From Rhodothermales bacterium (GTDB lineage Bacteria; Bacteroidota; Rhodothermia; Rhodothermales; VXPQ01), in assembly GCA_040904565.1 (NCBI GenBank), contig JBBDTI010000036.1:7376-40493 (forward strand): a DNA stretch of 33,118 nt, in the 5' to 3' direction. Below the pieces are notes generated by a model. It did not search any database, was not told the origin of the DNA, and saw nothing but the letters and a program-made list of their open reading frames with translations. Positions 7,546 to 32,325 of this stretch are shown one piece after another (positions within the stretch are counted from its first letter, which is position 1; every line of letters begins with the position of its first letter). The position numbers and the translations under genes were made by a program.

Positions 7546-8574
7546 ATGCAAGACAAAAGGTCCACGGGTCGGCGCGTTACATTGCAGGATGTCGCCAAAG
7601 ACGCCGGCGTCTCCCGGGCGACGGCTTCCCTTGTGCTTCGGGAAAGCCCGCTGGTGGCCGACGAAACGCGCCGGCACGTACTGGCGTCGATGCAAAAGCT
7701 CGGCTACGTTTACAATCGGGCCGCGGCGAGTCTTCGGACGCAGCGCTCGCACACGGTCGGAGTCGCCGTGACCGACATCATGAATCCCTTCTTCGCAGAG
7801 CTCGCGGTAGGCATCGAGAGCCTGCTCGACGAAGCGGACTACGCCGTCCTCCTTACCAACACGTCCGAGCAGCTCTCGAAGCAGAACCGTCTACTCGAAG
7901 TCATGCACGAGTTTCAGGTCGACGGCGTACTTCTTTGTCCGGTCGAAGACACGCCCGTCGACGCCATTGAACGCCTCCGCCGATGGGAGCTCCCGGTGGT
8001 GCTCGTGGCGCGCTACCTGGCTAACGTCGATGTCGACTACGTGGGGGGCGACAACGTCCGGGGCGCGCAGATGGCCGTGGACCACCTGGTGGATCGAGGA
8101 CACGGCGACATTGCATTCCTAGGGGGACCGGCGCATTCGTCGGCGCGGGCCGATCGCCTGTCCGGGTTCCGGGCGGCGCTCACTCGGCACGGCTTGCACG
8201 AGGTGGCCGCGCCCCGCGCCAGTGGGACCACTCGGGACGGCGGCCACGATGCCATGATGGAACTCCTCGACGAGACCGATGCCGTCACGGCCGTTCTCTG
8301 CTACAACGACGTGGTCGCCATGGGAGCCATGCTGGCTCTGCGAGCCCGCGGCCTCGAACCCGGTAAAGACATCGCCGTCGTCGGCTTCGACGACATTGCC
8401 GATGCATCGCTGTGGCGCCCGTCGCTGTCGACCGTCTCGATACCGCCCCGCCGCATCGGTCAAGAGGCGGTGCGTCTCTTGTTACATCGCATCGAAAAGC
8501 CGGACACCGACGTGCGAAGCGTCATCCTCTCCCCTGAGCTTATCGTGCGCGACTCGTCCGCTCCCCGTGTCTGA
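7546..8574 (+). CDS. LacI-family transcriptional regulator
   Basis: HTH VTLQDVAKDAGVSRATAS, hinge LGYVYNRAAASLR, and sugar-binding domain with VVGFDD. Confidence 0.95.
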   Translation: MQDKRSTGRRVTLQDVAKDAGVSRATASLVLRESPLVADETRRHVLASMQKLGYVYNRAAASLRTQRSHTVGVAVTDIMNPFFAELAVGIESLLDEADYAVLLTNTSEQLSKQNRLLEVMHEFQVDGVLLCPVEDTPVDAIERLRRWELPVVLVARYLANVDVDYVGGDNVRGAQMAVDHLVDRGHGDIAFLGGPAHSSARADRLSGFRAALTRHGLHEVAAPRASGTTRDGGHDAMMELLDETDAVTAVLCYNDVVAMGAMLALRARGLEPGKDIAVVGFDDIADASLWRPSLSTVSIPPRRIGQEAVRLLLHRIEKPDTDVRSVILSPELIVRDSSAPRV

Positions 8575-8697: not shown

Positions 8698-8715
8698 ATT
8701 TAGATCGATCTAAAT
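8698..8715. promoter_or_regulatory. Operator O1, perfect 18-bp palindrome ATTTAGATCGATCTAAAT
   Basis: Perfect palindrome with central CG, as in LacI-family operators; lies between lacI and the operon and overlaps a possible -35 TTGATT. Confidence 0.8.
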
Positions 8716-8738: not shown

Positions 8739-8752
8739 TTAGATCGATCTAA
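8739..8752. promoter_or_regulatory. Operator O2, perfect 14-bp palindrome TTAGATCGATCTAA
   Basis: Same core as O1, centres 39 bp apart, 24 bp before the afr start. Confidence 0.8.
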
Positions 8753-8776: not shown

Positions 8777-9799
8777 ATGGCAATTCCAGTCAACGCCCTC
8801 GGATGGGGTCTCGTCGGAGCCAGCACGATTGCTCGCGAGTACATGATCCCCGCCATCAATGCGCATCCCGACAGCAGGGTCGTGGCCGTTATGAGCAGCT
8901 CGGCGGAGCGGGGACGGCGCTATGCGAAACAGAACGACATTCCGACGGCATATGACCGTTTGGAAGACTTACTTGCCGATCGGGATGTGGACGTGGTCTA
9001 CGTCTCCACAACAAACGAACGCCATCACGACGAAGCGCTGGCTGCAGCGGCCGCCGGCAAACATGTCCTCTGCGAGAAGCCACTCGCCCTTTCTTTGGAA
9101 GATGCGCGAGAGATGGTCGAGGCGTGCCGCGAAGCCGGCGTGGTCATGGGTACGAACCACCATCTGCGCAACGCCGCCACCCATCGGACCATCCGACGTC
9201 TCGTACAGGAAGGAGCCATCGGCCGCCCCCTGGCCGCTCGGGTGTTCCACGCCGTACACCTGCCCGAGCACCTTCAGACCTGGCGCATTCAAAATCCTCA
9301 GGCCGGGGCCGGCGTAATCCTCGACATCACGGTGCACGACACGGATACGCTGCGCTTCATTCTCGAGGATGAGGTCGCTGAAGTTACCGCCCTTGCCGGC
9401 CGGCAGGGCCTGGCCGTAGAAGGTGTGGAGGACGCCGCCATGGGGGTGATGCGCTTCGAACGGGGCGTCCTCGCTCAGTTTCACGATGCGTTTACCATCA
9501 AGCATGCCGGCAATGGGCTCCAGGTGCACGGAACCGACGCCTCCATCTTCGCCGAGAACGTCATGACGCAGAACCCCGTCGGTCGAGTATTTTTCCGGAA
9601 GGGCGACGTCGTCGAAGACGTCGACGTTGGTAAGCCCGAAGGGCTGTACGCGCGCGCCGTGCGGCTCTTCAACCAGGCGGTTCGCGGAGAGGGCCGCCCG
9701 GCCGCCACTGGTGAAGACGGCATCCGCTCCCTCGCCGTCGCCCTCACCGCACTCAAATCGACCCGTACCGGGCGACACGAATCTGTCGCCTACGTCTGA
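8777..9799 (+). CDS. afr: Gfo/Idh/MocA oxidoreductase, 1,5-anhydro-D-fructose reductase-like
   Basis: WGLVGASTIARE, VYVSTTNE, CEKPLA, GTNHHLRN, ARVFHAV, GVILDITVHD, QFHDAFT and ATGEDG match my recollection of Sinorhizobium Afr closely. Confidence 0.8.
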   Translation: MAIPVNALGWGLVGASTIAREYMIPAINAHPDSRVVAVMSSSAERGRRYAKQNDIPTAYDRLEDLLADRDVDVVYVSTTNERHHDEALAAAAAGKHVLCEKPLALSLEDAREMVEACREAGVVMGTNHHLRNAATHRTIRRLVQEGAIGRPLAARVFHAVHLPEHLQTWRIQNPQAGAGVILDITVHDTDTLRFILEDEVAEVTALAGRQGLAVEGVEDAAMGVMRFERGVLAQFHDAFTIKHAGNGLQVHGTDASIFAENVMTQNPVGRVFFRKGDVVEDVDVGKPEGLYARAVRLFNQAVRGEGRPAATGEDGIRSLAVALTALKSTRTGRHESVAYV

Positions 9800-9838
9800 C
9801 GCTCCTTCCGTTCCATCGCGACTCCTGCAGGATCCCGC

Positions 9839-11419
9839 ATGCCCGCCCATTCGCTCGTAATCAGCCTCGAAGAGGCAGCGCGCCTCATCGAAAACGACCA
9901 GGTCGTCACGGTCAGTTCTTCGAGCGGACTCGGGTGCCCGGACGCGTTACTGAAAGCCATTGGAGAGCGCTTCCGCTCCGAGGGCGCGCCTCGCGGCTTA
10001 ACCACGCTGCATCCCATTGCGGCTGGAGATATGTACGGCATCGATGGAATCGATCACATCGCCGAGCCGGGCCTCCTCCGTCGTGTCGTCGCGGGCTCGC
10101 TGCCGAGCGGGCCTTCGTCGATGCCCTCGCCTCGTATCTGGCAAATGATTCACGCTGACGAGGTGGAAGCCTACAACCTGCCGAGCGGCATCCTCTTCCA
10201 TATGCACCGTGAGGCGGCCGCGAGACGCCCGGGCGTCCTTACACAGGTCGGCATGGACACCTTTGTTGATCCCCGTCGCCAAGGTGGACGAATGAACGAC
10301 GCCGCGACGGAAGACCTCGTCACGCAGGTCGAGTTCGACGGACAGCAGTGGCTGTACTTCCGCGCCATCCCCGTGGACGTAGCTCTCGTGCGCGGCACGA
10401 CGGCGGACGAGGACGGAAACATCTCGATGGAGCACGAAGGGGCTTACCTGGGTGCCTACGACCAGGCACTCGCCGCGCACAACAACGGCGGCATTGTGAT
10501 CGCGCAAGTGAAGCGGGTCGCCGCCGCCGGATCCATCCCTCCCCAGCAGATTCGCATCCCTGGCGTCCTGACCGACTACGTCGTCCTCGATCCGGATCAG
10601 ATGCAGACGACGCAGACACCGTACGACCCGGCGATTAGCGGTGAGACGAGATGTCCGCGCAGTTCGTTCGAGACCGTCGGATGGGGAATCAAGAAGTCCA
10701 TCGCTCGGAGAGCCGCCATGGAGCTTCGCGCGGGCGAGGCCGTCAATCTAGGCTTCGGCATCTCCGCCCTCGTACCCCGAATCCTGCTCGAAGAAGGGCT
10801 CTCTGATGCCGTGACGTGGGTGATCGAGCAGGGTGCGGTGGGCGGCGTTCCTCTGCTTAATTTTCAGTTCGGCTGCGCGGCGAACGCGCAGGCCGTCGTC
10901 GCATCGCCCGACCAGTTCACCTATTTTCAGGGCGGCGGGTTTGACCGTTCCATGCTCTCTTTCCTTCAGGTGGGCGGCGACGGCAGCGTCAACGTCTCTC
11001 GCCTCTCGGCCCTCCCGCACATCACAGCGGGCGTCGGGGGCTTCATAGACATTACCGCCAACGCACGACGGATCGTATTCAGCGGTACGTTCACCACGGG
11101 AGGCCTGAAGGTGGACGTACGCGACGGCCGCATCTACATCCGCCAAGAAGGGAAGGTGCAGAAGTTCGTGCCCGACATCGAGCACGTCACGTTCAGCGGC
11201 CACCGGGCCGTCGCTACGGGCCAGGAAGTGATCTTCGTTACCGAACGCTGCGTCATCATCCTGGAAACCGAGGGCCTGACCGTAACGGAAATCGCTCCGG
11301 GCGTCGACCTCGAGCGCGACGTGCTGGGCCAGACTGACGTGTCGCTGCGCGTCTGCGACGAACTGAAAGAGATGGAACCGCGCCTGTTCTCGCCCGAACC
11401 GATGAATCTGACGTTGTGA
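9839..11419 (+). CDS. Family I acyl-CoA:acetate/3-ketoacid CoA-transferase (YdiF-like, fused)
   Basis: GMDTFVDPR, RGTTADEDGN, VNLGFGI, catalytic Glu in VIEQG, GGFIDI, VTERCV and EIAPGVDL. Confidence 0.88.
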   Translation: MPAHSLVISLEEAARLIENDQVVTVSSSSGLGCPDALLKAIGERFRSEGAPRGLTTLHPIAAGDMYGIDGIDHIAEPGLLRRVVAGSLPSGPSSMPSPRIWQMIHADEVEAYNLPSGILFHMHREAAARRPGVLTQVGMDTFVDPRRQGGRMNDAATEDLVTQVEFDGQQWLYFRAIPVDVALVRGTTADEDGNISMEHEGAYLGAYDQALAAHNNGGIVIAQVKRVAAAGSIPPQQIRIPGVLTDYVVLDPDQMQTTQTPYDPAISGETRCPRSSFETVGWGIKKSIARRAAMELRAGEAVNLGFGISALVPRILLEEGLSDAVTWVIEQGAVGGVPLLNFQFGCAANAQAVVASPDQFTYFQGGGFDRSMLSFLQVGGDGSVNVSRLSALPHITAGVGGFIDITANARRIVFSGTFTTGGLKVDVRDGRIYIRQEGKVQKFVPDIEHVTFSGHRAVATGQEVIFVTERCVIILETEGLTVTEIAPGVDLERDVLGQTDVSLRVCDELKEMEPRLFSPEPMNLTL

Positions 11420-11498
11420 AGCACAATCTTTCTAAGCGAAGCCGGATCTTGCGGGGACGCTGTCGCTGTGCCGCACGATTTCGCGGAGGTGAGCCTCT

Positions 11499-12290
11499 AT
11501 GAGCGACACGATACGTACGAAGAAGATCAGGCTGTCGCTCGACGGACCGCTCGCATGGGTAACGCTTGACCGACCCGACAAGCTGAACGCGCTCGACAGG
11601 GAAATGCTGGAGGGGCTGGAGACGGCGTCCACTCTGATCGACCGAAACGATCGCGTGCGGGTCGCGCTGCTTACCGGCGCCGGGGATCGGGCGTTTTGCG
11701 TCGGTGCCGACATCAATGCCTGGAGCGAGCTGGAACCACTTGACATGTGGCGCCGGTGGACGCGCGACGGACAGCGGCTGTTCGACTGCATCGCCCAACT
11801 CCGGGTCCCGGTCATCGCCGTCTTGAACGGATATGCGTTCGGCGGCGGGCTCGAACTCGCCCTATCCGCCGACCTTCGCATCGCCGCCGACGACGCCGCG
11901 CTTGCCCTTCCGGAGGCTACGATCGGTACGGTTCCCGGTTGGGCAGGTACCCGGCGACTGCCGCGCCTGATCGGGCCGGCGCGCGCGAAGGAAATGATCT
12001 TCTCGGGTGAGCGCGTCGACGCGCGGAAGGCCGAGCGATGGGGCCTCGTCAACGAGGTGGTGCCCCGGGCGCGATTGATGCACAAGGCTGCGGAAATAGC
12101 CGACCGCATCGCCGAGAACGCTCCTATCCCGGTTCAGATCGCCAAACAGCTGGTGAATACGGCGGTCGGGGAAGCCCAACCCTCCACGATTGAATCCGTC
12201 GCCGGGGGGCTCGCCGCCATGACCGACGACGCCCAGGAGGGACTGGTGGCCTTCCGGGAACGCCGCCCCCCGCGGTTCAGCGGCCGCTGA
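11499..12290 (+). CDS. Enoyl-CoA hydratase/isomerase (crotonase) family
   Basis: LDRPDKLNAL, AFCVGADI, GGGLELAL and LPEATIG; both catalytic Glu positions present. Confidence 0.92.
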   Translation: MSDTIRTKKIRLSLDGPLAWVTLDRPDKLNALDREMLEGLETASTLIDRNDRVRVALLTGAGDRAFCVGADINAWSELEPLDMWRRWTRDGQRLFDCIAQLRVPVIAVLNGYAFGGGLELALSADLRIAADDAALALPEATIGTVPGWAGTRRLPRLIGPARAKEMIFSGERVDARKAERWGLVNEVVPRARLMHKAAEIADRIAENAPIPVQIAKQLVNTAVGEAQPSTIESVAGGLAAMTDDAQEGLVAFRERRPPRFSGR

Positions 12291-12367
12291 CCTGCCGCGA
12301 GAATCCGGCCGGTGCCTGCCGCCTGTGATCGACGAACCTACATACGATTCAAACAAGGATACACATC

Positions 12368-13957
12368 ATGTACGATTACATCGTGGTAGGCGCCGGCGCC
12401 GCCGGCTGTGCGGTCGCCCACCGCCTGAGTGAAGACCCGGACACGTCCGTGCTGTTGCTGGAAGCCGGCGGCAAAGATTCCAATCCCCTCATCCACATGC
12501 CGGCGGGCTTTACGAAGCTCACGAGCGAGGACGTCAACTGGGGCTTCAAGACCGTGCCCCAGGAACACGTAAACCGGCGGGAGATGCACTATCCGCAGGG
12601 GCGCACGCTCGGCGGCAGCACGTCGATCAATGCAATGATCTACATCCGCGGCCACCGGCTCGACTACGACGAATGGCGCACGCTGGGCAACGAGGGCTGG
12701 GGCTACGACGACGTGCTCCCATACTTCAAGAAGGCGGAAAACAACGAGCGCTTCGTCGACGAATACCACGGTAGAGGCGGGCCGCTAAACGTCGCCGATC
12801 AGATACAGCACAACCCGCTCACCAAAGCATTCGTTCGCGCCGCCCAGGAAATCGGCGTCCCTTACAATCCTGACCTGAACGGCAGCCGCCAGGAGGGCGT
12901 GAGCTTCTATCAGGTGACGCAGCGCAACGTTCGGCGTGAGAGCGCAGCAACGGCGTACCTCCATCCGGTCAAGAACCGCCCCAACCTGACGGTCGTAACT
13001 AACGCCATGGCGACCAGGATTCTTTTGGAGAACGGCCGCGCCGTAGGAGTGGAGTACCTTCACCGGGGTAAGAAGATCAGGCAAGCCCACGCCGGTGCGG
13101 AGATCATCCTCAGTGGGGGCGCCGTGAATTCACCCAGACTGCTCCTGCTCTCCGGGATCGGACCCGCTGACGAGCTACGCGCCCTTGGCGTTGACGTGCG
13201 GCACGACTTGCCCGGAGTGGGCAAGAATTTTCAGGATCATATGGACGTATACATCGCTGCGAAGGTTAGCCAGCGGGTTAGCTACAACGGCGAGGACCGG
13301 TGGTACCGCGCGATGCTCCACGGTATCCAGTACCTGCTCTACAAGACCGGCCCGGTGACAGCCTGCGTGGCGGAGGCCGGGTGTTTCGTTTACAGTCACG
13401 ACGAAGTTCGCTCGCCCGACATCCAGATCCACTGCCTACCCGCCTACGTCGTCGATCACGGACGAAAGCGGATACCTGGCGATGGGATCACCATCAATAC
13501 GTGCCACCTCCGTCCCCGAAGCGTCGGGGAGGTCACGCTTCGCAGCCCCGACCCCCTGGACCCCCCGGCGATCGATCCCAACTTTCTGGCGGAGCCCTAC
13601 GACCTTGAGAAATCCATCGCAGGGTTCCGATGGGCACGAAGGATCCTCTCGGCCTCTTCGTTCGAGCCGTTTATCGAGGGTGAGATCATGCCGGGACCCG
13701 ACAGTCAGACGGACGAGGAGATCGCGCAGTACATTCGCCAGTGGTCGAAAACCGACTACCACCCCGTCGGCTCGTGCAAGATGGGACAGGATGAGATGGC
13801 CGTCGTCGACACGCAGCTGCGGGTACGCGGCGTGGACGGACTTCGAGTGGTCGACGCCTCGATCATGCCGAAGCTGATCAGCGGCAACACACAGGCACCT
13901 TCGATCATGATCGGTGAGAAAGGTGCCGCCATTATCCAAGCCGGAGAGGTAATCTGA
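12368..13957 (+). CDS. GMC oxidoreductase (choline/L-sorbose dehydrogenase-like)
   Basis: GAGAAG FAD motif, GRTLGGSTSINAMIYIRG, LLLLSGIG, YHPVGSCKMG, GLRVVDAS and GNTQAP. Confidence 0.92.
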   Translation: MYDYIVVGAGAAGCAVAHRLSEDPDTSVLLLEAGGKDSNPLIHMPAGFTKLTSEDVNWGFKTVPQEHVNRREMHYPQGRTLGGSTSINAMIYIRGHRLDYDEWRTLGNEGWGYDDVLPYFKKAENNERFVDEYHGRGGPLNVADQIQHNPLTKAFVRAAQEIGVPYNPDLNGSRQEGVSFYQVTQRNVRRESAATAYLHPVKNRPNLTVVTNAMATRILLENGRAVGVEYLHRGKKIRQAHAGAEIILSGGAVNSPRLLLLSGIGPADELRALGVDVRHDLPGVGKNFQDHMDVYIAAKVSQRVSYNGEDRWYRAMLHGIQYLLYKTGPVTACVAEAGCFVYSHDEVRSPDIQIHCLPAYVVDHGRKRIPGDGITINTCHLRPRSVGEVTLRSPDPLDPPAIDPNFLAEPYDLEKSIAGFRWARRILSASSFEPFIEGEIMPGPDSQTDEEIAQYIRQWSKTDYHPVGSCKMGQDEMAVVDTQLRVRGVDGLRVVDASIMPKLISGNTQAPSIMIGEKGAAIIQAGEVI

Positions 13958-13958
13958 C

Positions 13959-15446
13959 ATGCAGCTTCCAACCGAACCAGAATGCTTCCAGATGCTGATA
14001 GGCGGGCGCTCGGAGGAAGCGCGCAGCACAATGCGCTATACAACCGAGAGTCCTGCCCACGATGTCGCTGTGGGCAGCTATCCTCTCGCCGCCGCCGAGG
14101 ATGTCGACGCCGCTGTCGGTGCAGCCCGCAGCGCCTTCGACGAGGGGCCGTGGCCGCGACTGCCGGGGGCGCAGCGCGCGCGCGCGCTGCGCGCCGTGAG
14201 TGAGGCGATTCGGTCGCAGATCGACGACCTAGCCTACCTCGAAACGCTGGAGAGCGGGAAGCCCATCGCCCAGGCCCGCGGCGAGATGGAATCGACCGCC
14301 GACCTGTGGGATTACGCCGCCACGCTGGCACGTCACGTTTACGGAGACACGTACAACACGCTCGGCAGCGACAAGCTCGGTTTCGTCTTCCGCGAGCCAA
14401 TCGGCGTGGTGGGCATGATCACACCGTGGAACTTCCCCCTTCTCATCGTCAGCCAGAAGCTGCCGTTCGCGCTGGCGGCCGGGTGCACGGCCGTCGTAAA
14501 ACCGAGCGAACTGACGCCGGGTACGACGCTTCGCCTGGGATCCATCCTCCAGGACACCGGCGTCCCCGAAGGCGTCGTCAACATCGTGACCGGCTTTGGT
14601 GACCCCGCCGGGGCCCGTCTTGCCGAGAATCCCGACGTCGACATGCTCTCCTTCACCGGGTCGACCGCCGTGGGGCGGAAGATCGTCGATGCGTCCCAGC
14701 ACAACCTGAAGAAAGTCTCGCTGGAACTGGGGGGTAAGAATCCCCAGATCGTCTTCGCCGACGCTGATCTGGAGGCGGCTCTCGATGCGGTGGTCTTCGG
14801 TGTCTCCTTCAACATGGGAGAGTGCTGCAACAGCGGCAGCCGGCTGCTCGTGCAGCGGGAGATCGCCGATGAGTTTCAGCAGATGGTGATCGAGCGGGCG
14901 AGAACGGTGCCGGTGGGGGACCCCCTGGACGAATCGACAAAGGTCGGGGCCATCGTCAATCAAACGCAATACGACAAGATCATGCACTACGTCGAGGTGG
15001 GGCGGGAGGAAGGGGCCGCGCTCCGCCTCGGCGGTCGCCCGCTGCCGTCGGACCGGGGACGCTACATCGAGCCGACCGTCTTCGTGGACGTCGAACCGTC
15101 GATGCAGATCGCGCGCGAAGAAATCTTCGGTCCCGTTCTTTCCACCATTCGGTTCGACACGGCCGAGGAGGCCGTCCGCATCACCAACCAGACCATGTAC
15201 GGACTGTCGGCCGGCGTCTGGACGCGCGACGTCGACACCGCCTTTCAGGTAAGCAGCGGCATCCGTGCCGGCACCGTCTGGATCAACTGTTTCATGGACG
15301 GTTACCCCGAGCTGCCGTTCGGGGGCTACAAGGAAAGCGGGCTCGGACGCGAACTCGGACGCTTCTCTATCGACGAGTTCACCGAATTGAAAACCGTACA
15401 GCTCCACCTGGGAGCGCGCACGAACTGGTGGCATCGGCCGGAGTAA
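13959..15446 (+). CDS. NAD(P)-dependent aldehyde dehydrogenase, L-sorbosone dehydrogenase-like
   Basis: ITPWNFP, FTGST, LELGGKNP, catalytic Cys in GECC, EEIFGP. SPAHDV and GDTYNTLG segments recall Gluconobacter SNDH. Confidence 0.9.
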   Translation: MQLPTEPECFQMLIGGRSEEARSTMRYTTESPAHDVAVGSYPLAAAEDVDAAVGAARSAFDEGPWPRLPGAQRARALRAVSEAIRSQIDDLAYLETLESGKPIAQARGEMESTADLWDYAATLARHVYGDTYNTLGSDKLGFVFREPIGVVGMITPWNFPLLIVSQKLPFALAAGCTAVVKPSELTPGTTLRLGSILQDTGVPEGVVNIVTGFGDPAGARLAENPDVDMLSFTGSTAVGRKIVDASQHNLKKVSLELGGKNPQIVFADADLEAALDAVVFGVSFNMGECCNSGSRLLVQREIADEFQQMVIERARTVPVGDPLDESTKVGAIVNQTQYDKIMHYVEVGREEGAALRLGGRPLPSDRGRYIEPTVFVDVEPSMQIAREEIFGPVLSTIRFDTAEEAVRITNQTMYGLSAGVWTRDVDTAFQVSSGIRAGTVWINCFMDGYPELPFGGYKESGLGRELGRFSIDEFTELKTVQLHLGARTNWWHRPE

Positions 15447-15450
15447 CCAC

Positions 15451-17088
15451 GTGCAGCTACTCGCCCCTCTCGACTGGGCATTCGTCGCCGCCTATTTTCT
15501 GCTGGTCTTCGCCGTGGCCTTCGGTGCGGCACGCCGCGAGGGATCGATCCTGCAAACCTCCACCGGCTATTTTCTGGCCGGAAGGCACGCCGGCTGGTTC
15601 GTGATCGGCGCCTCTCTGTTCGCCTCCAACATCGGAGCGGAGCACATCGTCGGGCTGGCCGGCTCCGGCGCGGCCGGCGGCATGGCGGTCGGCCAGTTCG
15701 AAATCCTGGCCTCCCTAATCCTGCTTCTTCTCGGCTGGGTGTTCGTTCCCTTTTACGTCAAGAGCGGCGTGTATACGATGCCCGAGTTTCTCGAACGTCG
15801 TTATTCGCCAGGCGCCCGCTGGTATCTCGCCCTCATCTCCATCGTCGGCTACGTCCTGACCAAGATCTCCGTTACCATCGCCGCCGGCGGGATCGTGTTC
15901 GAGACGCTGATGGGCATCAACTTCTGGACGGGCGCGTTGATCGTCATCGTCGTGACCGGCGTCTACACCGTCTTTGGCGGGCTGCAGGCCGTACTCTATA
16001 CCGATCTCATCCAGATGTTCGTTCTCGTCGGGGGCGCCGTGACAGTGACCGTGGTGGGCTTGAACGAGCTCGGCGGGTGGGACCGGATGGTCACGCTGTC
16101 CGACCCCGGCTATTTCAACCTCTGGAAGCCCGCCTCGCACCCCGACTTTCCCTGGACCGGCATCGTGTTCGGCGCACCCATCCTCGGCGTCTGGTACTGG
16201 TGCACGGACCAGTTCATCGTCCAGCGCGTCCTCTCCGGTAGGGACCAGGGACATGCCCGCCGCGGCACCATCTTCGGCGGACTCCTGAAGCAGCTGCCCC
16301 TCTTCATCTTCGTCGTGCCCGGCATCGTCGCCGCCGGCCTGCTCCAGACCGGCGGCCTGACCTTCGAGGAGAGCGACCAGGCGCTGCCCGCCCTTATCGG
16401 GACCCTCCTACCGACCGGTTTTCGTGGGCTGGTGGTGGCCGGGCTCCTGGCCGCCCTCATGAGTTCGCTGTCGTCGGTCTTCAACTCCTGCTCCACGCTG
16501 TTTACGTTCGACATCTACAAGAAGCTGCATCCGCGGGCCTCCGAACGGCGGCTGGTACGCGTGGGGCAGCTGGCAACGGTCGGGCTCGTCGCGCTCGGAC
16601 TACTCTGGATTCCCCTCATCCGAGTGATCTCGGGCCAGCTTTTCGTATACATTCAGAGCGTGCAGGCCTACATCGCCCCGCCGATCGCAGCCGTATTTCT
16701 GGTCGGGGTCGCGTGGCGGAGGGTCAACGCGCGCGGCGCCATGGCATCTCTGCTTTTCGGCTTCGTCGTCGGGATGGGCCGGCTCGTCGCCGAGCTGATG
16801 AAGGACGATCTCGGCGGTTGGCTCTACTGGTTTGCCGACGTCAACTTCCTGCACTTCGCAGGCATCCTTTTCGTCCTCTGCACGGCTGTGATGGTAGGCG
16901 TGAGCCTTTCGGCGCCGGCACCGGCCGCAGCGCAGATCGCCGGACTCACGTTCGCGACCGCCGAGAAGAGTGAGGAGGAACTCGAAGATATGGGATCGGC
17001 CGGAACCGCCTGGCGGCGCCGAGATCTGTGGGCCAGTCTTGTATTACTCCTCGTCGTCGCCATCGTTTGGCTCTCTTTCACCTCGTGA
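15451..17088 (+). CDS. Sodium:solute symporter (SGLT/SLC5 sugar or polyol type)
   Basis: YFLAGR, SLFASNIGAEH, TMPEFLERRY, WYWCTDQFIVQR and LAALMSSLSS; many TM helices; GTG start. Confidence 0.93.
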   Translation: MQLLAPLDWAFVAAYFLLVFAVAFGAARREGSILQTSTGYFLAGRHAGWFVIGASLFASNIGAEHIVGLAGSGAAGGMAVGQFEILASLILLLLGWVFVPFYVKSGVYTMPEFLERRYSPGARWYLALISIVGYVLTKISVTIAAGGIVFETLMGINFWTGALIVIVVTGVYTVFGGLQAVLYTDLIQMFVLVGGAVTVTVVGLNELGGWDRMVTLSDPGYFNLWKPASHPDFPWTGIVFGAPILGVWYWCTDQFIVQRVLSGRDQGHARRGTIFGGLLKQLPLFIFVVPGIVAAGLLQTGGLTFEESDQALPALIGTLLPTGFRGLVVAGLLAALMSSLSSVFNSCSTLFTFDIYKKLHPRASERRLVRVGQLATVGLVALGLLWIPLIRVISGQLFVYIQSVQAYIAPPIAAVFLVGVAWRRVNARGAMASLLFGFVVGMGRLVAELMKDDLGGWLYWFADVNFLHFAGILFVLCTAVMVGVSLSAPAPAAAQIAGLTFATAEKSEEELEDMGSAGTAWRRRDLWASLVLLLVVAIVWLSFTS

Positions 17089-17098
17089 ACATCCAGGC

Positions 17099-18475
17099 AT
17101 GATCGACCTGAGCGCACGCATTCGTCCGTTCGACCTTCGGCCCAAGATCCGGCGATTCTGGGAGCTTTCGGCTGCGAAGATCCGCGCGGTAGAGCGCGAC
17201 TTCGATGTGGCTCGCGGTGCGCCTGTGTTTACGATAGACGGACGCTATACGACGCGCGGGTGGACGGAGTGGACCCAGGGCTTTCAGTTCGGGTCGGCTC
17301 TACTTCAGTTCGACGGGACGGGCGACGATGCATTCCTGGACCTCGGCCGCCGGAAGACGATCGAGCAGATGGCGCCACACGTCACGCACGCAGGCGTACA
17401 CGATCACGGCTTCAACAACGTCAGCACCTTCGGCACGCTACTGCGCCTGCTCGAAGACGGGCGGTTCGAAGCGGGTGAGTGGGAGCGCAGGTATTACGAG
17501 ATGGCCCTAAAAAGCTCGGGTGCCATCCAGGCACTGCGGTGGACGGCTACCGGCCCGGACGACGGATACATCTATTCGTTCAACGGGCCCCACTCGCTCT
17601 TCGCGGACACGATGCGAACGCTGCGCGTGCTGGCACTGGCACATCAGCTCGGTCACGTTCTCGCCGGCGAGAACGACGAGCGGATCTCGCTTCTCGGACG
17701 GGCCATCCGACATGCGCGGACGACGGCTCGGTACGCGGTTTTCTACGGCGACGGACGTGACGGGTACGACGTGCGGGGCCGCGTGGCGCACGAGAGCATC
17801 TTCAACGTCAACGACGGGACGTATCGGTGCGCGGGGACGCAGCAGGGCTATTCGCCGTTCTCGACGTGGACGCGCGGGCTTGCCTGGGTGCTGCTCGGCT
17901 TCACTGAGCTGGCCGAGTTCATTGAAGCCACCGAGGACGAGCTGGCCGAGCACGGTGGTCGCGGAACAATCAAATCGCTGCTGCTCGCCGCCGCGGCAGC
18001 AGCGGCGGACTTCTACATCGACCACACGCCGGTATGCGGCGTGCCGTACTGGGATACCGGAGCTCCCGGGCTGCACCTCATGGGGGACTACCTCGACCGG
18101 CCGGCCGATCCGTACAATCCGCACGAACCCGTAGACAGCAGCGCAGCGGCCATCGCGGCCCAGGGCCTCCTGCGCCTGGGACGACTTCTGGGGAATGCAG
18201 ACGGCAGACAATACGAGCAAGCCGGCCTGCACGTACTCGACACGCTCCTGTCCCCCCCGTATCTTAGCGACGATGAGCGGCATCACGGTCTCCTCTTACA
18301 TGCCGTATACCACTGGCCGAACCGGTGGGATCACGTGCCCGAAGGGCACGAAGTCGCATGCGGCGAATCCACGATGTGGGGCGATTACCACGTGCGTGAG
18401 GCCGTCCTCTACGTCCAGCGCCTGATCCGGGGCGAGCGATACCTGACGTTCTTCCTCGGACCGTACCGGAATTAG
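17099..18475 (+). CDS. GH88-family unsaturated glucuronyl hydrolase-like protein, no signal peptide
   Basis: WTQGF, HDHGF, ADTM, QGY..STWTRGLAW, PYWD, DSSAAAIAA and WGDY. Start placed at ATG 17099, after the SSS stop. Confidence 0.8.
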   Translation: MIDLSARIRPFDLRPKIRRFWELSAAKIRAVERDFDVARGAPVFTIDGRYTTRGWTEWTQGFQFGSALLQFDGTGDDAFLDLGRRKTIEQMAPHVTHAGVHDHGFNNVSTFGTLLRLLEDGRFEAGEWERRYYEMALKSSGAIQALRWTATGPDDGYIYSFNGPHSLFADTMRTLRVLALAHQLGHVLAGENDERISLLGRAIRHARTTARYAVFYGDGRDGYDVRGRVAHESIFNVNDGTYRCAGTQQGYSPFSTWTRGLAWVLLGFTELAEFIEATEDELAEHGGRGTIKSLLLAAAAAAADFYIDHTPVCGVPYWDTGAPGLHLMGDYLDRPADPYNPHEPVDSSAAAIAAQGLLRLGRLLGNADGRQYEQAGLHVLDTLLSPPYLSDDERHHGLLLHAVYHWPNRWDHVPEGHEVACGESTMWGDYHVREAVLYVQRLIRGERYLTFFLGPYRN

Positions 18476-18477
18476 TC

Positions 18478-19974
18478 ATGGTGCGCGATTACGATATCGT
18501 CATTATCGGCACCGGCGCGGGAGGCGGCACGCTGGCGTACGGGCTGCGCGGCACGGGCGCCCGGGTGCTGCTGATTGAGCGGGGCGACTATCTTCCGCAG
18601 GAGCCGGAGAACTGGGATCCGGAGGCCGTCTTCGTGCACGATCGCTACAAAGCGGACGAGACCTGGCTCGACAAACACGGCAACCGCTTCAGACCCGGGA
18701 TCCACTACTTCGTTGGAGGCAATACCAAGGTGTACGGTGCCGCGCTTCCCCGCATGCGAGCGGAAGACTTCGACGCACTCGAGCACGAAGGCGGAACCTC
18801 ACCGGCGTGGCCCATCGACTACAGCGACCTGGCGTCGTACTACGCACGCGCGGAGAAAATCTACCGGGTACATGCGGATCCGCACGAGGATCCAACCGAG
18901 CCGCCGCGATCCGAAGAGCCGCCCTACCAAGCCGTGCCCCACGAACCCTACGTCGCGGATTTGTCCGACCGACTGCGCCGCCAGGGCCTCCACCCGTTTC
19001 ATCTGCCGCTGGGGATTGACCTTCGTCCCGGAGGGCGCTGCATTCGCTGCAAGACGTGCGACGGCTTCGCGTGCCGGGAGCTCGCAAAAAGCGACGCAGA
19101 TGTGTCCTGCGTACGACCGGCACTCGAACGGGACGAGGTCGACCTGATGACCCGCGCATTCGCAGTGCGCCTGAAGACGGATGTATCCGGGAGACGTATT
19201 GCCTCCGTCGATGTGGAACGAGACGGCGAGCGTTTCGAGGTCCGAGCAGATCGCTTCGTCGTCTCTTGCGGCGCCGTGAACTCGGCCGCGCTGCTTCTCC
19301 GGTCCGGCGAAGACGGGGCGCTGGCGAACGCATCCGGACAGGTAGGACGCAACTACATGATGCACAACAACACGGCGCTGGTCGCCGTGGACCCGTTTCG
19401 CCGAAACACCAGCGTGTTTCAGAAGACGCTGGCCGTGAACGACTTCTACCTACATGGCGCAGATTGGCCGTATCCGATGGGCAACCTCCAGCTCGTAGGT
19501 AAGGTGCAGGCGCCCATGCTGGCGGCGGCGCGGCCGCGCGTGCCAATGCTGTTTCTGCGTTTCCTCGCCCGCCGAAGTGTCGACTGGTGGGTCATGTCCG
19601 AGGACCTGCCTAACCCCAACAATCAGGTCACACTCACGGCCGGCGCTACGATCCAGGTGCACTGGTCGCCCAACAACCGCGTCGCCCATCGCAGGCTTAT
19701 TGACGCTGCTGCCGAGATGATGCGAGCGGCAGGCTATCCATTCGTCTTCACCGAGACGATGGGCGTCGCCACGAACTCGCATCAATGCGGAACACTCCGA
19801 TTCGGCGACGACCCGGCCGCCTCGGTGCTCGATCCGTACTGCCGTGCCCACGACATCGCGAACCTCTACGTGGTCGACGCGTCCGTCTTTCCCTCTTCCA
19901 GCGCCGTAAACCCCGCCCTCACCATCGCGGCGATGGCGCTTCGCGTGGCGGATCATTTTAAGAACACGGCATAA
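18478..19974 (+). CDS. GMC oxidoreductase (sugar dehydrogenase type with Cys cluster)
   Basis: GTGAGGG, VGGNTKVYGA, CIRCKTCDGFAC, HQCGTLRFG, NLYVVDAS and VNPALTI. Confidence 0.9.
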   Translation: MVRDYDIVIIGTGAGGGTLAYGLRGTGARVLLIERGDYLPQEPENWDPEAVFVHDRYKADETWLDKHGNRFRPGIHYFVGGNTKVYGAALPRMRAEDFDALEHEGGTSPAWPIDYSDLASYYARAEKIYRVHADPHEDPTEPPRSEEPPYQAVPHEPYVADLSDRLRRQGLHPFHLPLGIDLRPGGRCIRCKTCDGFACRELAKSDADVSCVRPALERDEVDLMTRAFAVRLKTDVSGRRIASVDVERDGERFEVRADRFVVSCGAVNSAALLLRSGEDGALANASGQVGRNYMMHNNTALVAVDPFRRNTSVFQKTLAVNDFYLHGADWPYPMGNLQLVGKVQAPMLAAARPRVPMLFLRFLARRSVDWWVMSEDLPNPNNQVTLTAGATIQVHWSPNNRVAHRRLIDAAAEMMRAAGYPFVFTETMGVATNSHQCGTLRFGDDPAASVLDPYCRAHDIANLYVVDASVFPSSSAVNPALTIAAMALRVADHFKNTA

Positions 19975-25631: not shown

Positions 25632-26711
25632 GCGCCCTCGTTCCGTGAGTTCGAGAAATCCGTCCTCGCCGCGGATGAGACCGTCCTCCTCCGCCCTCCT
25701 CACGACCCGCAGCGCGAAGTCCGGCGGCCAGTTTAGATGTTCTTCGAGATGATCGACACGGTTTTCGGTCCGTGCTTCGGGCAGTCTTTCGTGCTGGAAG
25801 AGGTGAATGGCAAGCAGCTTTTCGGCGAACTCCCACTTCTGATTTAGCCGCCTGCGTACGCCGGCGAGGATGCCGTGGCGCGGCGCGAGCAGATATACGA
25901 CGCCGAATTCGACGCCCACCATGCCGGCCATCGCTCCGGCAATGGAGGCATCCAGGAAATGGGCTACCCAGAAGCCCGAGATCGCCGCAGCCAGTCCGAG
26001 CGCGACGCTGATGAGGATCATCCGTTCGAGGCGATCGGTGAGCAGGTACGCCGCGGCGGGCGGACCGATCATAAGCGCGACGACCAGGATGGAGCCGACG
26101 GCGTCGAACGCCGCCACGGCGGTCACCGAGACGAGCGTCATGAGTCCATAGTGAATGGCTGCCGGTGCAAACCCCAGCGCGGCAGCGAGTCCGGCATCGA
26201 ACGTAGCTACCTTCAGCTCTTTATAGAAAAGCGCGATGAACAGGGCATTCAGCACCCCCACCCCGCCCATCACGAAGAGGGAGCGCGGGCCGAGGTCCGT
26301 TCCCATGACGACGAGTCGATCGAACGGAGCGAAGGCGAGCTCGCCCAGCAGCACGGCGTCCGTATCCAGATGCACGTCGCCCGCGAATCGCGCGATGAGG
26401 ATGACGCCGACGCTGAAGAGGACCGGGAAGACGATGCCGATCGCCGCGTCTTCCTTAACGAGACGCGTCGACATCAGCAGCTCGACGAGGAAGACCGTCA
26501 GCACGCCGGTGGCCGCCGCGGCGACGATCAGGAGCGGCGAATTCAGATCGTTCGTCAGGAAGAACCCGATGACGATCCCCGGAAGGATGGCGTGACTGAT
26601 GGCGTCGCTCATCATCGCCATCTTGCGCAGAACGAGGAACGATCCCGGCAGCGCGCAGGCTGCCGCCACGACGGCCGCGATCAGCTGTATGTCGATCTGG
26701 TCCGGCGTCAT
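25599..26711 (-). CDS. Metal ABC transporter permease (TroD/MntD-like) with C-terminal extension
   Basis: DAISHAILPG, VKEDAAIG, HLDTDAVLLGE and AFDAVGSILV; its start overlaps the troC stop (ATGA). Confidence 0.92.
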   Translation of the reverse strand: MTPDQIDIQLIAAVVAAACALPGSFLVLRKMAMMSDAISHAILPGIVIGFFLTNDLNSPLLIVAAAATGVLTVFLVELLMSTRLVKEDAAIGIVFPVLFSVGVILIARFAGDVHLDTDAVLLGELAFAPFDRLVVMGTDLGPRSLFVMGGVGVLNALFIALFYKELKVATFDAGLAAALGFAPAAIHYGLMTLVSVTAVAAFDAVGSILVVALMIGPPAAAYLLTDRLERMILISVALGLAAAISGFWVAHFLDASIAGAMAGMVGVEFGVVYLLAPRHGILAGVRRRLNQKWEFAEKLLAIHLFQHERLPEARTENRVDHLEEHLNWPPDFALRVVRRAEEDGLIRGEDGFLELTERGRDLATEAIVQT

Positions 26712-27826: not shown

Positions 27827-27827
27827 G

Positions 27828-28598: not shown

Positions 28599-28600
28599 AG

Positions 28601-29655: not shown

Positions 29656-29832
29656 ATAAATTAGGATATACAGGCCGCCGGGCGGATCGTGTTCTTGGAA
29701 AATGAGGCTAAGAATGCGCCGGGCCCGGATGATTTACGCCGCCTGGCGGGGCAGAGATAGAACGCGGCCGGAATACCGGAGTAGAAAGTTTGAATTGGGC
29801 GCACGTTTACGACCAACCGACGAGACGAACTG

Positions 29833-30651: not shown

Positions 30652-30691
30652 CGCGGCTTGACGCCCTGACGCACGCAGGTACCGTGCGCCC

Positions 30692-31831: not shown

Positions 31832-31894
31832 GTATGGGGATGGATCACGTGCGTGCTACTTCGATCGTTCGAGCTCGCGTGGACGTCGTGACGT

Positions 31895-32230: not shown

Positions 32231-32325
32231 GGGATGCTCCGTAAATTCGAGCTCTCAACGTTATGTTCAGGTGAAGTGCGTAGCGTTACACGCGGCGCGC
32301 CGCGATCCGTTGCGTGCCGCCGCGC

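What the first reader, a model, noticed from the sequence alone, without database searches (positions are those of the whole stretch)
8777..19974. Candidate CoA-dependent ring-opening pathway for 1,5-anhydro sugars (afr + GMC + ALDH + CoA-transferase + crotonase + GH88)
Seen: eight co-oriented genes, the last five only 1-10 bp apart, behind a LacI operator. They mix sugar enzymes with a CoA-transferase and a two-Glu crotonase, which is odd for sugar catabolism, and the GH88 has no signal peptide and no polysaccharide lyase nearby to make its substrate. Established: Afr reduces 1,5-anhydrofructose to 1,5-anhydro-D-mannitol; GH88 hydrates the vinyl ether of 4,5-unsaturated uronates; C1-reduced DEH from the manno series is KDG. 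Inference: GMC and ALDH oxidise C6 to a carboxylate, the CoA-transferase activates it, the crotonase eliminates the 4-OH to give a 4,5-unsaturated uronate, and GH88 hydrates and opens the ether ring to give KDG. This would explain why Afr makes the manno epimer and could extend to glycosides. I recall a similar afr neighbourhood in rhizobia but know of no characterised pathway of this kind.
Basis: partly seen in the sequence, partly recalled or inferred. Interest (0 to 1): 0.85.

Follow-up and report, generated by a model that had tools for sequence, protein, structure and literature searches.

The report
Candidate CoA-dependent anhydro-sugar breakdown operon
A repressor-controlled set of eight genes, found together in many unrelated soil and sediment bacteria, probably breaks down 1,5-anhydro sugars by an undescribed route that uses coenzyme A to open the sugar ring.

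Summary
Window 8777-19974 carries eight co-oriented genes behind a LacI gene and two copies of a 14-bp palindrome found nowhere else in the 4.02-Mb genome. The true order is AFR-like reductase, family-I CoA-transferase, two-Glu crotonase, choline-DH-like GMC, ALDH, SSF symporter, distant GH88, second GMC. The last five are 1, 4, 10 and 2 nt apart.

In 401 genomes of the phylum, AFR and CoA-transferase orthologs occur in the same 6 genomes, and all 6 carry the GH88-like gene (30 of 401 overall). In 80 metagenome loci of the CoA-transferase, AFR lies directly upstream in 41 of 59 testable loci. A GH88-type gene is present in 18 loci. KDG-kinase and KDPG-aldolase genes adjoin the cluster in three.

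Sinorhizobium meliloti has the same afr-CoA-transferase-crotonase-ALDH-GMC cluster but no GH88, so GH88 ring opening is one variant, not universal.

No chemistry was tested. I found no paper describing this route, and a 2025 review calls aerobic 1,5-anhydroglucitol catabolism unidentified. Verdict: real, conserved, probably a new pathway; the mechanism is inferred (about 0.45).

The parts
7546..8574 (+). LacI-family repressor gene
   Evidence: Pfam LacI HTH plus Peripla_BP_1/3. No NCBIfam equivalog reaches its cut-off. A LacI gene precedes afr in many related loci.
8700..8713 (.). Candidate operator 1: TTAGATCGATCTAA, centre of an 18-bp perfect palindrome at 8698-8715
   Evidence: Read. One of only two exact copies in the 4.02-Mb genome. 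Binding not tested.
8739..8752 (.). Candidate operator 2: TTAGATCGATCTAA, 25 nt before the afr start codon
8777..9799 (+). 1,5-anhydro-D-fructose reductase ortholog (GFO/IDH/MocA)
   Evidence: PDB 2GLX E 4e-121 and 4KOA E 1.2e-117. 58% identity to the annotated S. meliloti AFR, with GASTIA, EKP and LDITVHD kept.
9839..11419 (+). Fused family-I CoA-transferase (YdiF/FadX type)
   Evidence: PF01144. PDB 2AHU YdiF E 5.2e-113. VIEQGAVGG motif present (motif recalled).
11499..12290 (+). Crotonase-fold enoyl-CoA hydratase/dehydratase with both catalytic Glu motifs
   Evidence: PF00378 E 3e-60. GGGLE and PEATIG present.
12368..13957 (+). GMC1, a choline-dehydrogenase-like flavoenzyme; proposed primary-alcohol (C6) oxidase
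   Evidence: NF002550 644 bits against a cut-off of 605. Nearest structures all oxidise primary alcohols: choline DH 9LQ0 E 7e-123, chloramphenicol oxidoreductase 8B7S, alcohol oxidases.
13959..15446 (+). NAD(P)-dependent aldehyde dehydrogenase, 1 nt after GMC1
   Evidence: PF00171 E 2.8e-170. No NCBIfam equivalog reaches its cut-off.
15451..17088 (+). Sodium:solute symporter (SSF/SGLT-type), proposed uptake of the neutral substrate
   Evidence: PF00474 E 1.3e-88 and TIGR00813. Replaced by a CUT1 sugar ABC system in relatives and rhizobia.
17099..18475 (+). GH88-like (alpha/alpha)6 protein, cytoplasmic; proposed vinyl-ether hydratase
   Evidence: Pfam GH88 26.0 bits against GA 26.6. PDB UGL 1VD5 E 8.8e-10, with a profile 1.3e-13. 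AF2 model pLDDT 77.9; the Foldseek top 10 are all GH88. D102 and D170 are invariant and align to the two catalytic Asp motifs.
18478..19974 (+). GMC2, flavoenzyme of the FAD glucose/fructose-dehydrogenase large-subunit type; proposed 1,5-anhydroglucitol C2 dehydrogenase
   Evidence: PDB 8HDD/6A2U E 2e-27, fructose DH 7W2J E 1.3e-23, weaker pyranose oxidase matches. Found with afr-type clusters; not found in the 6 clusters examined that lack afr.

Best explanation
This is a LacI-repressed operon for uptake and aerobic catabolism of a 1,5-anhydro-hexose-type compound: 1,5-anhydroglucitol, 1,5-anhydrofructose or 1,5-anhydromannitol.

Proposed flow. Every enzymatic step is inferred from family and gene context; none was shown.
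1. The SSF symporter imports the sugar.
2. GMC2 oxidises 1,5-anhydroglucitol at C2 to 1,5-anhydrofructose.
3. AFR reduces it to the manno epimer. This is the only step with a characterised ortholog.
4. GMC1 and ALDH oxidise the C6 alcohol to the 1,5-anhydro-uronate.
5. The family-I CoA-transferase makes its thioester.
6. The two-Glu crotonase removes the 4-OH, giving a 4,5-unsaturated (vinyl-ether) uronyl species without any polysaccharide lyase.
7. CoA is passed on to the next substrate molecule, as in the carnitine CaiB/CaiD pair.
8. The GH88-like enzyme hydrates the vinyl ether. The hemiketal opens and gives 2-keto-3-deoxygluconate.
9. The unlinked KDG-kinase-like and Eda genes feed this into central metabolism.

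By my Fischer-projection reasoning, only the manno series gives the D-erythro product (KDG). The gluco series would give the L-threo isomer.
For: Families.

Phylogenetic profile in one 401-genome phylum sample:
- AFR orthologs (E<=1e-80) occur in 6 of 401 genomes.
- CoA-transferase occurs in 7 of 401 (E<=1e-60): the same 6 genomes plus one 42%-identity paralog.
- GH88L occurs in 30 of 401, and all 7 CoA-transferase genomes have it.
- By genus the overlap is 5 of 5 against 22 of 180 overall; Fisher P 1.8e-5. Kin are not independent.
- Within genus g12, 3 of 4 genomes have all three genes and G328 has none.

Synteny: AFR-CoAT-ECH-GMC1-ALDH is kept in 4 relatives (L090, L092-L094), with GMC2 on the fetched stretch in three (L090, L093, L094).

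Metagenome loci of the CoA-transferase (80 loci):
- AFR (>=50% identity) lies within 1.5 kb upstream in 41 of 59 loci with enough sequence.
- Of 20 loci with >=8 kb downstream: ECH 16, ALDH 11, GH88-type 11, GMC2 9.
- GH88-type genes occur in 18 of 80 loci. Seventeen are a 28-31% paralog that passes the Pfam GH88 cut-off in the 3 loci scanned (L104, L119, L134). One is a 64% ortholog.
- KDG-kinase-like pfkB plus KDPG aldolase adjoin the cluster in L104, L119 and L122.

Other points:
- L069 (an alphaproteobacterial MAG) joins a TRAP acid transporter, ECH and CoAT with an SDR and GH88L, and has no GMC1 or ALDH. That fits a substrate that is already an acid.
- The cluster holds no thiolase, acyl-CoA dehydrogenase or reductase, which fits catalytic use of CoA.
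- G000 has a KDG-kinase-like gene and an eda gene.
- The operator is unique to this promoter region.
Against: - No biochemical or expression data; no RNA run was listed.
- GH88 is not universal. The afr clusters of S. meliloti, Rhizobium and Paraburkholderia lack it. No rhizobial record in the plasmid collection matches GH88L (2 records match, neither rhizobial). Four of 5 alphaproteobacterial genomes with the CoA-transferase have no match to the GH88L profile.
- GH88L is not dedicated to this route. 23 of 30 GH88L-bearing genomes lack the CoA-transferase. In 79 of 80 ortholog loci its neighbours are an SDR, a 386-aa GFO and a cupin, not this cluster. In the 5 relatives it is unlinked to the cluster.
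- GH88L scores just under the Pfam cut-off.
- The CoAT-ECH-GMC1-ALDH module also occurs without afr, GMC2 or GH88, so it is not specific to anhydro sugars.
- A 2025 review reports that S. morelense converts 1,5-anhydromannitol to mannose by C1 hydroxylation.
- The kinase and aldolase genes of G000 are elsewhere and carry no copy of the operator.
- Whether a GH88 enzyme accepts a 1,5-anhydro or CoA-bound substrate is unknown.
Confidence: 0.45

Rival explanations
1. Same chemistry (C6 oxidation, CoA activation, 4,5-elimination, GH88 hydration) but on another substrate, such as an O-glycoside or another pyranoside. GH88 would release the aglycone, and AFR would reduce a 2-keto or 5-keto intermediate rather than free 1,5-anhydrofructose.
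For: The CoAT-ECH-GMC1-ALDH module also serves clusters without afr. CUT1 ABC transporters with SBP_bac_1 binding proteins replace the symporter in relatives. Canonical GH88 enzymes cleave glycosides. The usual partners of GH88L (SDR, cupin, pfkB/eda) resemble the unsaturated-uronate route.
Against: AFR and CoA-transferase orthologs occur in exactly the same 6 of 401 genomes. GMC2 was found only in afr-type clusters. A C2 oxidise-and-reduce pair is needed only if C2 survives into the product, as it does for a 1,5-anhydro sugar (my inference). The AFR catalytic and NADP motifs are kept.
Confidence: 0.2
2. The CoA-transferase and crotonase handle a small hydroxy-acid fragment made late in the pathway (3-hydroxypropionate or lactate type), not the C6 sugar acid. 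GH88L is an ordinary cytoplasmic unsaturated-uronate hydrolase that was merely recruited to the operon.
For: YdiF/Pct-type transferases act on short acids, and the nearest structure is YdiF. Crotonases include 3-hydroxypropionyl-CoA dehydratases (paper title seen in the listing). GH88L is unlinked in relatives and common elsewhere. The clusters that lack afr carry an acyl-CoA dehydrogenase and ETF.
Against: No enzyme in the afr-type clusters would consume an enoyl-CoA. The window holds no lyase to supply GH88 with substrate. GH88-type genes of two clades sit directly after ECH or ALDH in 17 loci. All 7 CoA-transferase genomes have GH88L.
Confidence: 0.15
3. The published rhizobial route applies. 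AFR makes 1,5-anhydromannitol, and an oxygenating enzyme (perhaps one of the GMC proteins acting at C1) turns it into mannose. The CoA genes would belong to an unrelated function.
For: The review PMC12441222 summarises Kuhn et al. 2006: 1,5-anhydromannitol goes to mannose through an unidentified P450-like hydroxylase (passages read).
Against: It leaves the strictly co-occurring CoA-transferase, crotonase, ALDH and GH88 without a role. No P450 or monooxygenase family is present in the window or in the S. meliloti locus. I could not read the original paper.
Confidence: 0.08

Closest known systems
Polysaccharide-lyase / GH88 (or GH105) / KduI-KduD / KdgK-KdgA route for unsaturated uronates
   Same: A GH88-fold enzyme with both catalytic Asp motifs. 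The proposed product feeds KDG kinase and KDPG aldolase, which adjoin the cluster in three loci.
   Different: No lyase is present. The double bond would be made inside the cell by a CoA-transferase plus crotonase on a monomer. GH88L is cytoplasmic, about 80 residues longer than solved UGLs, and below the Pfam cut-off.
Carnitine CaiB/CaiD system (CoA-transferase plus crotonase dehydrating a beta-hydroxy acid with CoA recycling; recalled)
   Same: A transferase plus a two-Glu crotonase, with no enzyme that consumes the CoA ester. The crotonase matches the crotonobetainyl-CoA hydratase model at E 7.8e-51, below its cut-off.
   Different: CaiB is a family-III transferase (recalled); this one is family I, YdiF type. 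The substrate would be a sugar acid.
Rhizobial 1,5-anhydrofructose catabolism (AFR of Sinorhizobium morelense / S. meliloti)
   Same: An orthologous reductase. The same afr-CoAT-ECH-ALDH-GMC cluster is present in S. meliloti.
   Different: The published downstream step is C1 hydroxylation to mannose by an unidentified enzyme. The role of the cluster genes is undescribed. The rhizobial clusters have an SDR and a DHDPS-like gene instead of GH88.
Anaerobic glycyl-radical route for 1,5-anhydroglucitol-6-P and 1,5-anhydromannitol-6-P (YbiW, PflD)
   Same: The same class of substrate, and the same problem of opening a ring that has no anomeric OH.
   Different: That route uses PTS phosphorylation and oxygen-sensitive radical chemistry and gives 1-deoxyfructose-6-P. 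No such genes are here. The route proposed here relies on FAD-dependent GMC oxidoreductases and uses no oxygen-sensitive radical enzyme.
L-sorbose dehydrogenase (GMC) plus sorbosone dehydrogenase (ALDH) pair (recalled)
   Same: A GMC enzyme and an ALDH side by side, turning a sugar primary alcohol into a carboxylate. The rhizobial ALDH is annotated sorbosone dehydrogenase. A Sinorhizobium sorbose dehydrogenase reacts with 1,5-anhydroglucitol (Araki 2015, reference title only).
   Different: That pair is not linked to CoA chemistry or to GH88.

Membership tests
1,5-anhydro-D-fructose reductase (AFR, GFO/IDH/MocA) | Close sequence similarity to the characterised enzyme | tested here: met
   E 4e-121 to 2GLX and 1.2e-117 to 4KOA; the next structure scores 4.7e-31. 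58% identity over 323 residues to the S. meliloti protein annotated AFR.
1,5-anhydro-D-fructose reductase (AFR, GFO/IDH/MocA) | Catalytic Lys/Asp/His (K94, D176, H180) and NADP-site residues (S10, A13, S33); residue roles recalled | tested here: met
   All six positions are identical in the BLASTP alignment to the S. meliloti AFR.
1,5-anhydro-D-fructose reductase (AFR, GFO/IDH/MocA) | NADPH-dependent reduction of 1,5-anhydrofructose to 1,5-anhydromannitol | not testable with these tools
   Needs an enzyme assay.
GH88 unsaturated glucuronyl hydrolase | Pfam PF07470 above its gathering score | tested here: not met
   26.0 bits against 26.6. In the whole-genome scan, 19.4 bits. The paralog in 3 related clusters scanned passes at 32.7-34.6 bits.
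GH88 unsaturated glucuronyl hydrolase | (alpha/alpha)6 barrel closest to solved GH88 structures | tested here: met
   AF2 model pLDDT 77.9, pTM 0.86. Foldseek ranks 1-10 are all GH88 UGLs with TM (target) 0.70-0.80; GH105 follows.
GH88 unsaturated glucuronyl hydrolase | Two catalytic Asp (D88 and D149 of Bacillus UGL) | tested here: met
   D102 (VHDHGF) and D170 (LFADT) are invariant in 26 sequences. hhalign places them on the conserved Asp of VHDLGF and FIDIMMN in the paralog family (prob 100%, E 9.4e-40). Those motifs match the HH(D/N)IGF and IIIDCLLN stretches of UGL printed. The direct HMMER pairwise alignment is unreliable in this region.
GH88 unsaturated glucuronyl hydrolase | Hydration of a 4,5-unsaturated uronate | not testable with these tools
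   Needs an assay.
Crotonase (enoyl-CoA hydratase/dehydratase) | ECH_1 domain and both catalytic Glu motifs | tested here: met
   PF00378 E 3e-60. GGGLE and PEATIG read (motif meaning recalled).
Family-I CoA-transferase | CoA_trans domains of a fused alpha-beta enzyme and an E-x-G catalytic motif | tested here: met
   PF01144. Both the pcaI and pcaJ halves match. YdiF 2AHU E 5.2e-113. VIEQGAVGG present (motif recalled).
Lyase-dependent polysaccharide utilisation locus | A polysaccharide lyase and a secreted or periplasmic GH88 | tested here: not met
   No lyase family in 24 window ORFs; 7 ORFs have no Pfam match. The GH88L N-terminus has no signal-like hydrophobic stretch (by eye).
LacI-type repressor/operator unit | A LacI gene beside palindromic sites in the promoter region | tested here: met
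   Binding and effector not testable here.

The most novel reading that the evidence does not exclude
A widespread aerobic pathway, unrecognised so far, opens the ether ring of 1,5-anhydro sugars by turning them into uronyl-CoA thioesters. A crotonase then acts as an intracellular, lyase-free maker of 4,5-unsaturated uronates, and GH88 (or an SDR/DHDPS-like alternative in Proteobacteria) converts these to KDG. This would be the missing aerobic route for 1,5-anhydroglucitol, the real function of the afr cluster of rhizobia, and the first use of CoA thioester chemistry on a sugar ring.
Probability: 0.4. Interest if true: 0.88.

Novelty: new variant of a known kind. Interest (0 to 1): 0.78.

Why it matters
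1,5-Anhydroglucitol is a common food and plant polyol and a clinical marker. Its phosphorylated form causes the neutropenia of GSD Ib and G6PC3 deficiency. A 2025 review states that only oxygen-sensitive bacterial routes are known, and that an enzyme working under aerobic conditions would be needed for a probiotic approach.

This cluster gives concrete, testable candidates for that aerobic route. It would also explain why AFR makes the manno epimer. It would assign a function to a conserved afr operon in Sinorhizobium, Rhizobium and Paraburkholderia and in many soil and sediment bacteria. It would add a new logic to carbohydrate catabolism: CoA activation of a uronate to permit beta-elimination.

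No paper in the held library mentions a uronyl-CoA.

Tried and rejected
- RNA evidence: no RNA holder listed, only 4 DNA runs of one study. I did not lay reads.
- Promoter and terminator scans: near shuffle expectation, uninformative.
- Regulon search with the operator: no further site upstream of any gene.
- Pfam GH88 as a genome probe: too insensitive. It missed the GH88L ortholog of G401, so I used the A1 profile instead.
- Direct HMMER alignment of GH88L to UGL: unreliable around the catalytic Asp residues. I replaced it with a profile-profile alignment to the paralog family.
- Locus tags for S. meliloti, guessed from memory: 2 papers matched (one each for two of the six tags), neither opened and neither title concerns this cluster.
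- Literature searches that found no description of this route.
- Kuhn et al. 2006 and Araki et al. 2015 are not held. Supplementary files were not consulted.
- Chance adjacency: rejected because of the conserved synteny and the phylogenetic profile.
- A choline/betaine (BetA/BetB) reading of GMC1 plus ALDH: rejected because of the sugar context, and because the BetA and BADH equivalog cut-offs are not reached.

Full report
WHAT IS THERE

Window 8777-19974 holds eight ORFs on the + strand. In order they are:
- an AFR-like GFO/IDH/MocA reductase (8777-9799);
- a fused family-I CoA-transferase (9839-11419);
- a crotonase (11499-12290);
- a choline-dehydrogenase-like GMC flavoenzyme, GMC1 (12368-13957);
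- an aldehyde dehydrogenase (13959-15446);
- an SSF sodium:solute symporter (15451-17088);
- a GH88-like protein (17099-18475);
- a second GMC enzyme, GMC2 (18478-19974).

The gaps between genes are 39, 79, 77, 1, 4, 10 and 2 nt.

A LacI-family gene (7546-8574) precedes the block. The 202-nt spacer holds TTAGATCGATCTAA twice, at 8700-8713 and 8739-8752. These are the only exact copies in the 4,020,002-base genome. The one 1-mismatch site lies inside an ORF.

The rest of the window encodes PheS/PheT, RNase Y, a CcmF-like protein, an ArsR/MarR-type regulator, a hybrid histidine kinase and a radical-SAM protein. It has no polysaccharide lyase family, though 7 ORFs have no Pfam match.

THE PROTEINS

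- **AFR.** It matches the two solved 1,5-anhydro-D-fructose reductases at E 4e-121 and 1.2e-117, against 4.7e-31 for the next structure. It is 58% identical to the S. meliloti protein annotated AFR. The EKP lysine, the LDITVHD Asp and His, and the GASTIA/MSSS nucleotide-site residues are all kept (residue roles recalled).
- **CoA-transferase.** Closest to E. coli YdiF (E 5.2e-113).
- **Crotonase.** It has GGGLE and PEATIG.
- **GMC1.** It passes the NCBIfam choline-dehydrogenase subfamily cut-off (644 against 605 bits) but not the BetA equivalog. Its nearest structures all oxidise primary alcohols.
- **GMC2.** It resembles the FAD glucose-dehydrogenase and fructose-dehydrogenase large subunits (E 2e-27 and 1.3e-23), with weaker pyranose-oxidase matches.
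- **GH88-like protein.** It scores 26.0 bits against a Pfam cut-off of 26.6. It matches Bacillus UGL at E 8.8e-10, or 1.3e-13 with a 26-sequence profile. An AlphaFold model (pLDDT 77.9, pTM 0.86) finds only GH88 structures in Foldseek ranks 1-10, with TM 0.70-0.80 on the target. Asp102 and Asp170 are invariant. A profile-profile alignment (prob 100%, E 9.4e-40) places them on the conserved Asp of a paralog family that does pass the Pfam cut-off. Those motifs correspond to the D88 and D149 stretches of UGL as printed by HMMER.

ARE THE GENES CONSERVED TOGETHER?

The hypothesis survives it.

In one evenly drawn sample of 401 genomes of the window's phylum:
- AFR orthologs (E<=1e-80) occur in 6 genomes.
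- CoA-transferase matches (E<=1e-60) occur in 7. These are the same 6 at 68-74% identity plus one 42% paralog.
- GH88L orthologs (E<=1e-100) occur in 30, including all 7.
- By genus that is 5 of 5 against 22 of 180 (Fisher P 1.8e-5). Relatives are not independent.
- In genus g12, three genomes have all three genes and the fourth (G328) has none.

In four relatives the order AFR-CoAT-ECH-GMC1-ALDH is kept, and GMC2 lies on the fetched stretch in three of them (L090, L093, L094). The symporter is either present or replaced by a CUT1 sugar ABC system. GH88L lies elsewhere in those genomes.

In 80 metagenome loci found with the CoA-transferase (64-75% identity):
- AFR lies within 1.5 kb upstream in 41 of the 59 loci with enough upstream sequence.
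- Of the 20 loci with at least 8 kb downstream: 16 have the crotonase, 11 the ALDH, 11 a GH88-type gene, 9 GMC2, 5 GMC1, and 10 a 750-aa fusion of a gluconate-2-dehydrogenase small subunit with a GMC domain.
- GH88-type genes occur in 18 of the 80 loci. Seventeen are the 28-31% paralog, placed right after the crotonase or ALDH. One is a 64% ortholog.
- Some loci are near-duplicates (L129/L130, L155/L157).
- A KDG/KDGal-kinase-like pfkB and a KDPG aldolase adjoin the cluster in L104, L119 and L122.

PROTEOBACTERIA

The CoA-transferase has 285 matching records in the plasmid collection, 74 of them at 60-80% identity, mostly Rhizobium and Sinorhizobium. I opened 5 of them.

- **afr type (3 of 5).** S. 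meliloti has LacI-AFR-CoAT-ECH-ALDH, then four sugar ABC-transporter genes, then GMC2 (44%), an SDR and GMC1 (59%). A DHDPS-like gene lies divergently upstream. Rhizobium sp. ACO-34A is alike, and Paraburkholderia shows AFR-CoAT-ECH-ALDH, an SDR and GMC1 but no GMC2 on the fetched stretch.
- **No GH88.** None of these has a GH88, and GH88L finds no rhizobial record in that collection.
- **Cluster type without afr (2 of 5).** Paracoccus and Sagittula keep CoAT-ECH-GMC1-ALDH but lack AFR and GMC2. They add an acyl-CoA dehydrogenase, an SDR, a DHDPS-like gene and a TIM-barrel isomerase. Paracoccus also has ETF and glycerate kinase on the fetched stretch.
- **Class sample.** In 301 alphaproteobacterial genomes the transferase occurs in 5. 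Four of the 5 regions fetched from the four newly found genomes are of the type without afr, and one is of the afr type. Only the centre genome has GH88L.

WHERE GH88L USUALLY LIVES

Its orthologs (58-68% identity) are spread over many phyla. Within 7 kb in 80 loci, the recurrent neighbours are:
- an SDR (47 loci), of the same NCBIfam model PRK12745 as the S. meliloti cluster SDR;
- a 386-aa GFO (41 loci);
- a TIM barrel (18);
- a cupin (13);
- an OYE-like protein (11);
- pfkB and eda (6 each).

The CoA genes appear in only one of these loci, L069. There a TRAP acid transporter, the crotonase and the transferase sit beside a GFO, the SDR and GH88L, with no GMC1 or ALDH on the 21-kb stretch fetched. 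In G000 the cupin and GFO orthologs are on another contig.

HOW IT MOST LIKELY WORKS

Every step below is inferred.

- The cluster contains no enzyme that consumes an enoyl-CoA. The transferase and crotonase therefore probably act as a pair that dehydrates a beta-hydroxy acid and recycles the CoA.
- GMC1 plus ALDH, 1 nt apart, would make that acid from a primary alcohol.
- For a pyranose uronyl-CoA the alpha carbon is C5 and the beta hydroxyl is 4-OH. Elimination gives exactly the 4,5-unsaturated vinyl ether that GH88 enzymes hydrate.
- This explains a cytoplasmic GH88 with no lyase.
- For a 1,5-anhydro sugar the ring cannot open by itself, because there is no anomeric OH. Hydration at C5 is therefore needed.
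- The opened product keeps C2 and C3. By Fischer-projection reasoning the manno series gives 3-deoxy-D-erythro-hexulosonate (KDG) and the gluco series gives the L-threo isomer.
- That gives AFR a reason to exist. It also suggests that GMC2, which was found only in afr-type clusters, makes 1,5-anhydrofructose from 1,5-anhydroglucitol, so that the two enzymes together epimerise C2.
- G000 has a KDG-kinase-like gene and an eda gene elsewhere.

WHAT SPEAKS AGAINST IT

- Nothing was measured.
- GH88 is missing from proteobacterial afr clusters, so ring opening there needs another enzyme or other chemistry.
- GH88L is mostly found without the CoA genes.
- The CoA module also works in clusters without afr.
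- The review PMC12441222 (passages read) reports that S. morelense converts 1,5-anhydromannitol to mannose by an unidentified P450-like hydroxylation.

LITERATURE

That review names only the anaerobic glycyl-radical routes and the rhizobial AFR route, and says no enzyme for aerobic 1,5-anhydroglucitol metabolism is identified.

Searches for anhydro-sugar terms combined with CoA, KDG, gene cluster or operon found no description of this pathway. Neither did searches for anhydro-uronates or for uronyl-CoA names. The uronyl-CoA search returned zero papers.

Kuhn 2006 and Araki 2015 are not held. I saw only the title of Araki 2015, which says that a Sinorhizobium sorbose dehydrogenase reacts with 1,5-anhydroglucitol. 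Subscription journals and supplementary files were not searched, so prior description cannot be excluded.

VERDICT

This is a real, regulated and widely conserved operon. I add three points: a role for GMC2 and the symporter; the finding that GH88 is one of at least two solutions; and the finding that the CoA-transferase/crotonase/GMC/ALDH module is a more general device.

Noticed in passing
L001-L080 (GH88L ortholog loci); in G000, L081 8354-12823 (= C83): A highly conserved 455-aa cytoplasmic GH88-like family (58-68% identity across many phyla) sits beside a PRK12745-type SDR, a 386-aa GFO oxidoreductase and a small cupin. It is sometimes near pfkB/eda, and no lyase family was among the 13 commonest neighbour families scanned. 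Its substrate is unknown. In G000 the cupin and GFO genes lie apart from GH88L, next to two TIM-barrel genes, a DUF993-like gene and two SSF transporters.
   Followed up: partly
L177, L179, L195-L198: A second cluster type in Rhodobacterales and other Alphaproteobacteria keeps CoA-transferase, crotonase and GMC1, with an ALDH match in 4 of the 6 loci (not L196, L197), but lacks afr, GMC2 and GH88. In the two annotated loci (L177, L179) it adds an acyl-CoA dehydrogenase, an SDR, a long DHDPS-like protein, a TIM-barrel isomerase and aldo-keto reductases. Paracoccus (L177) also has ETF and glycerate kinase. This looks like a CoA-dependent sugar-acid route for another substrate.
   Followed up: partly
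L119 5358-7622 and equivalents in L112, L113, L122, L129, L134, L164: A roughly 750-aa fusion of a gluconate-2-dehydrogenase small-subunit domain (PF13618) with a GMC domain sits between the CoA-transferase and the crotonase. No GMC1 was found on those contigs. In L129/L130 no ALDH is seen either.
   Followed up: partly
L176 6472-7641 (-), with 57-61% relatives in L161, L196, L197: A 389-aa DHDPS-family protein with no NCBIfam match accompanies the GH88-less clusters together with the SDR. It may replace GH88 or act as a KDG-type aldolase.
   Followed up: no
L093 1033-1512 (-): A SnoaL_3-like 159-aa gene lies directly after GMC2 in L093, one of the genus g12 relatives; the other two were not checked for it. 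It could be a partner subunit. There is no equivalent after GMC2 in the window.
   Followed up: no
L180 3687-4121 (-): The PLSDB table marks a 'VIM-73 beta-lactamase, identity 100%' prediction on a 2.3-Mb Paraburkholderia replicon about 6 kb from the afr-type cluster. I did not check it, and it may be a database artefact.
   Followed up: no
window 25875-28913 and 29734-33111: Five ORFs have no Pfam match: 640 and 362 aa at 25875-28913, and 289, 137 and 265 aa at 29734-33111. The last three lie around a radical-SAM/DUF3641 gene (30692-31831, - strand).
   Followed up: no
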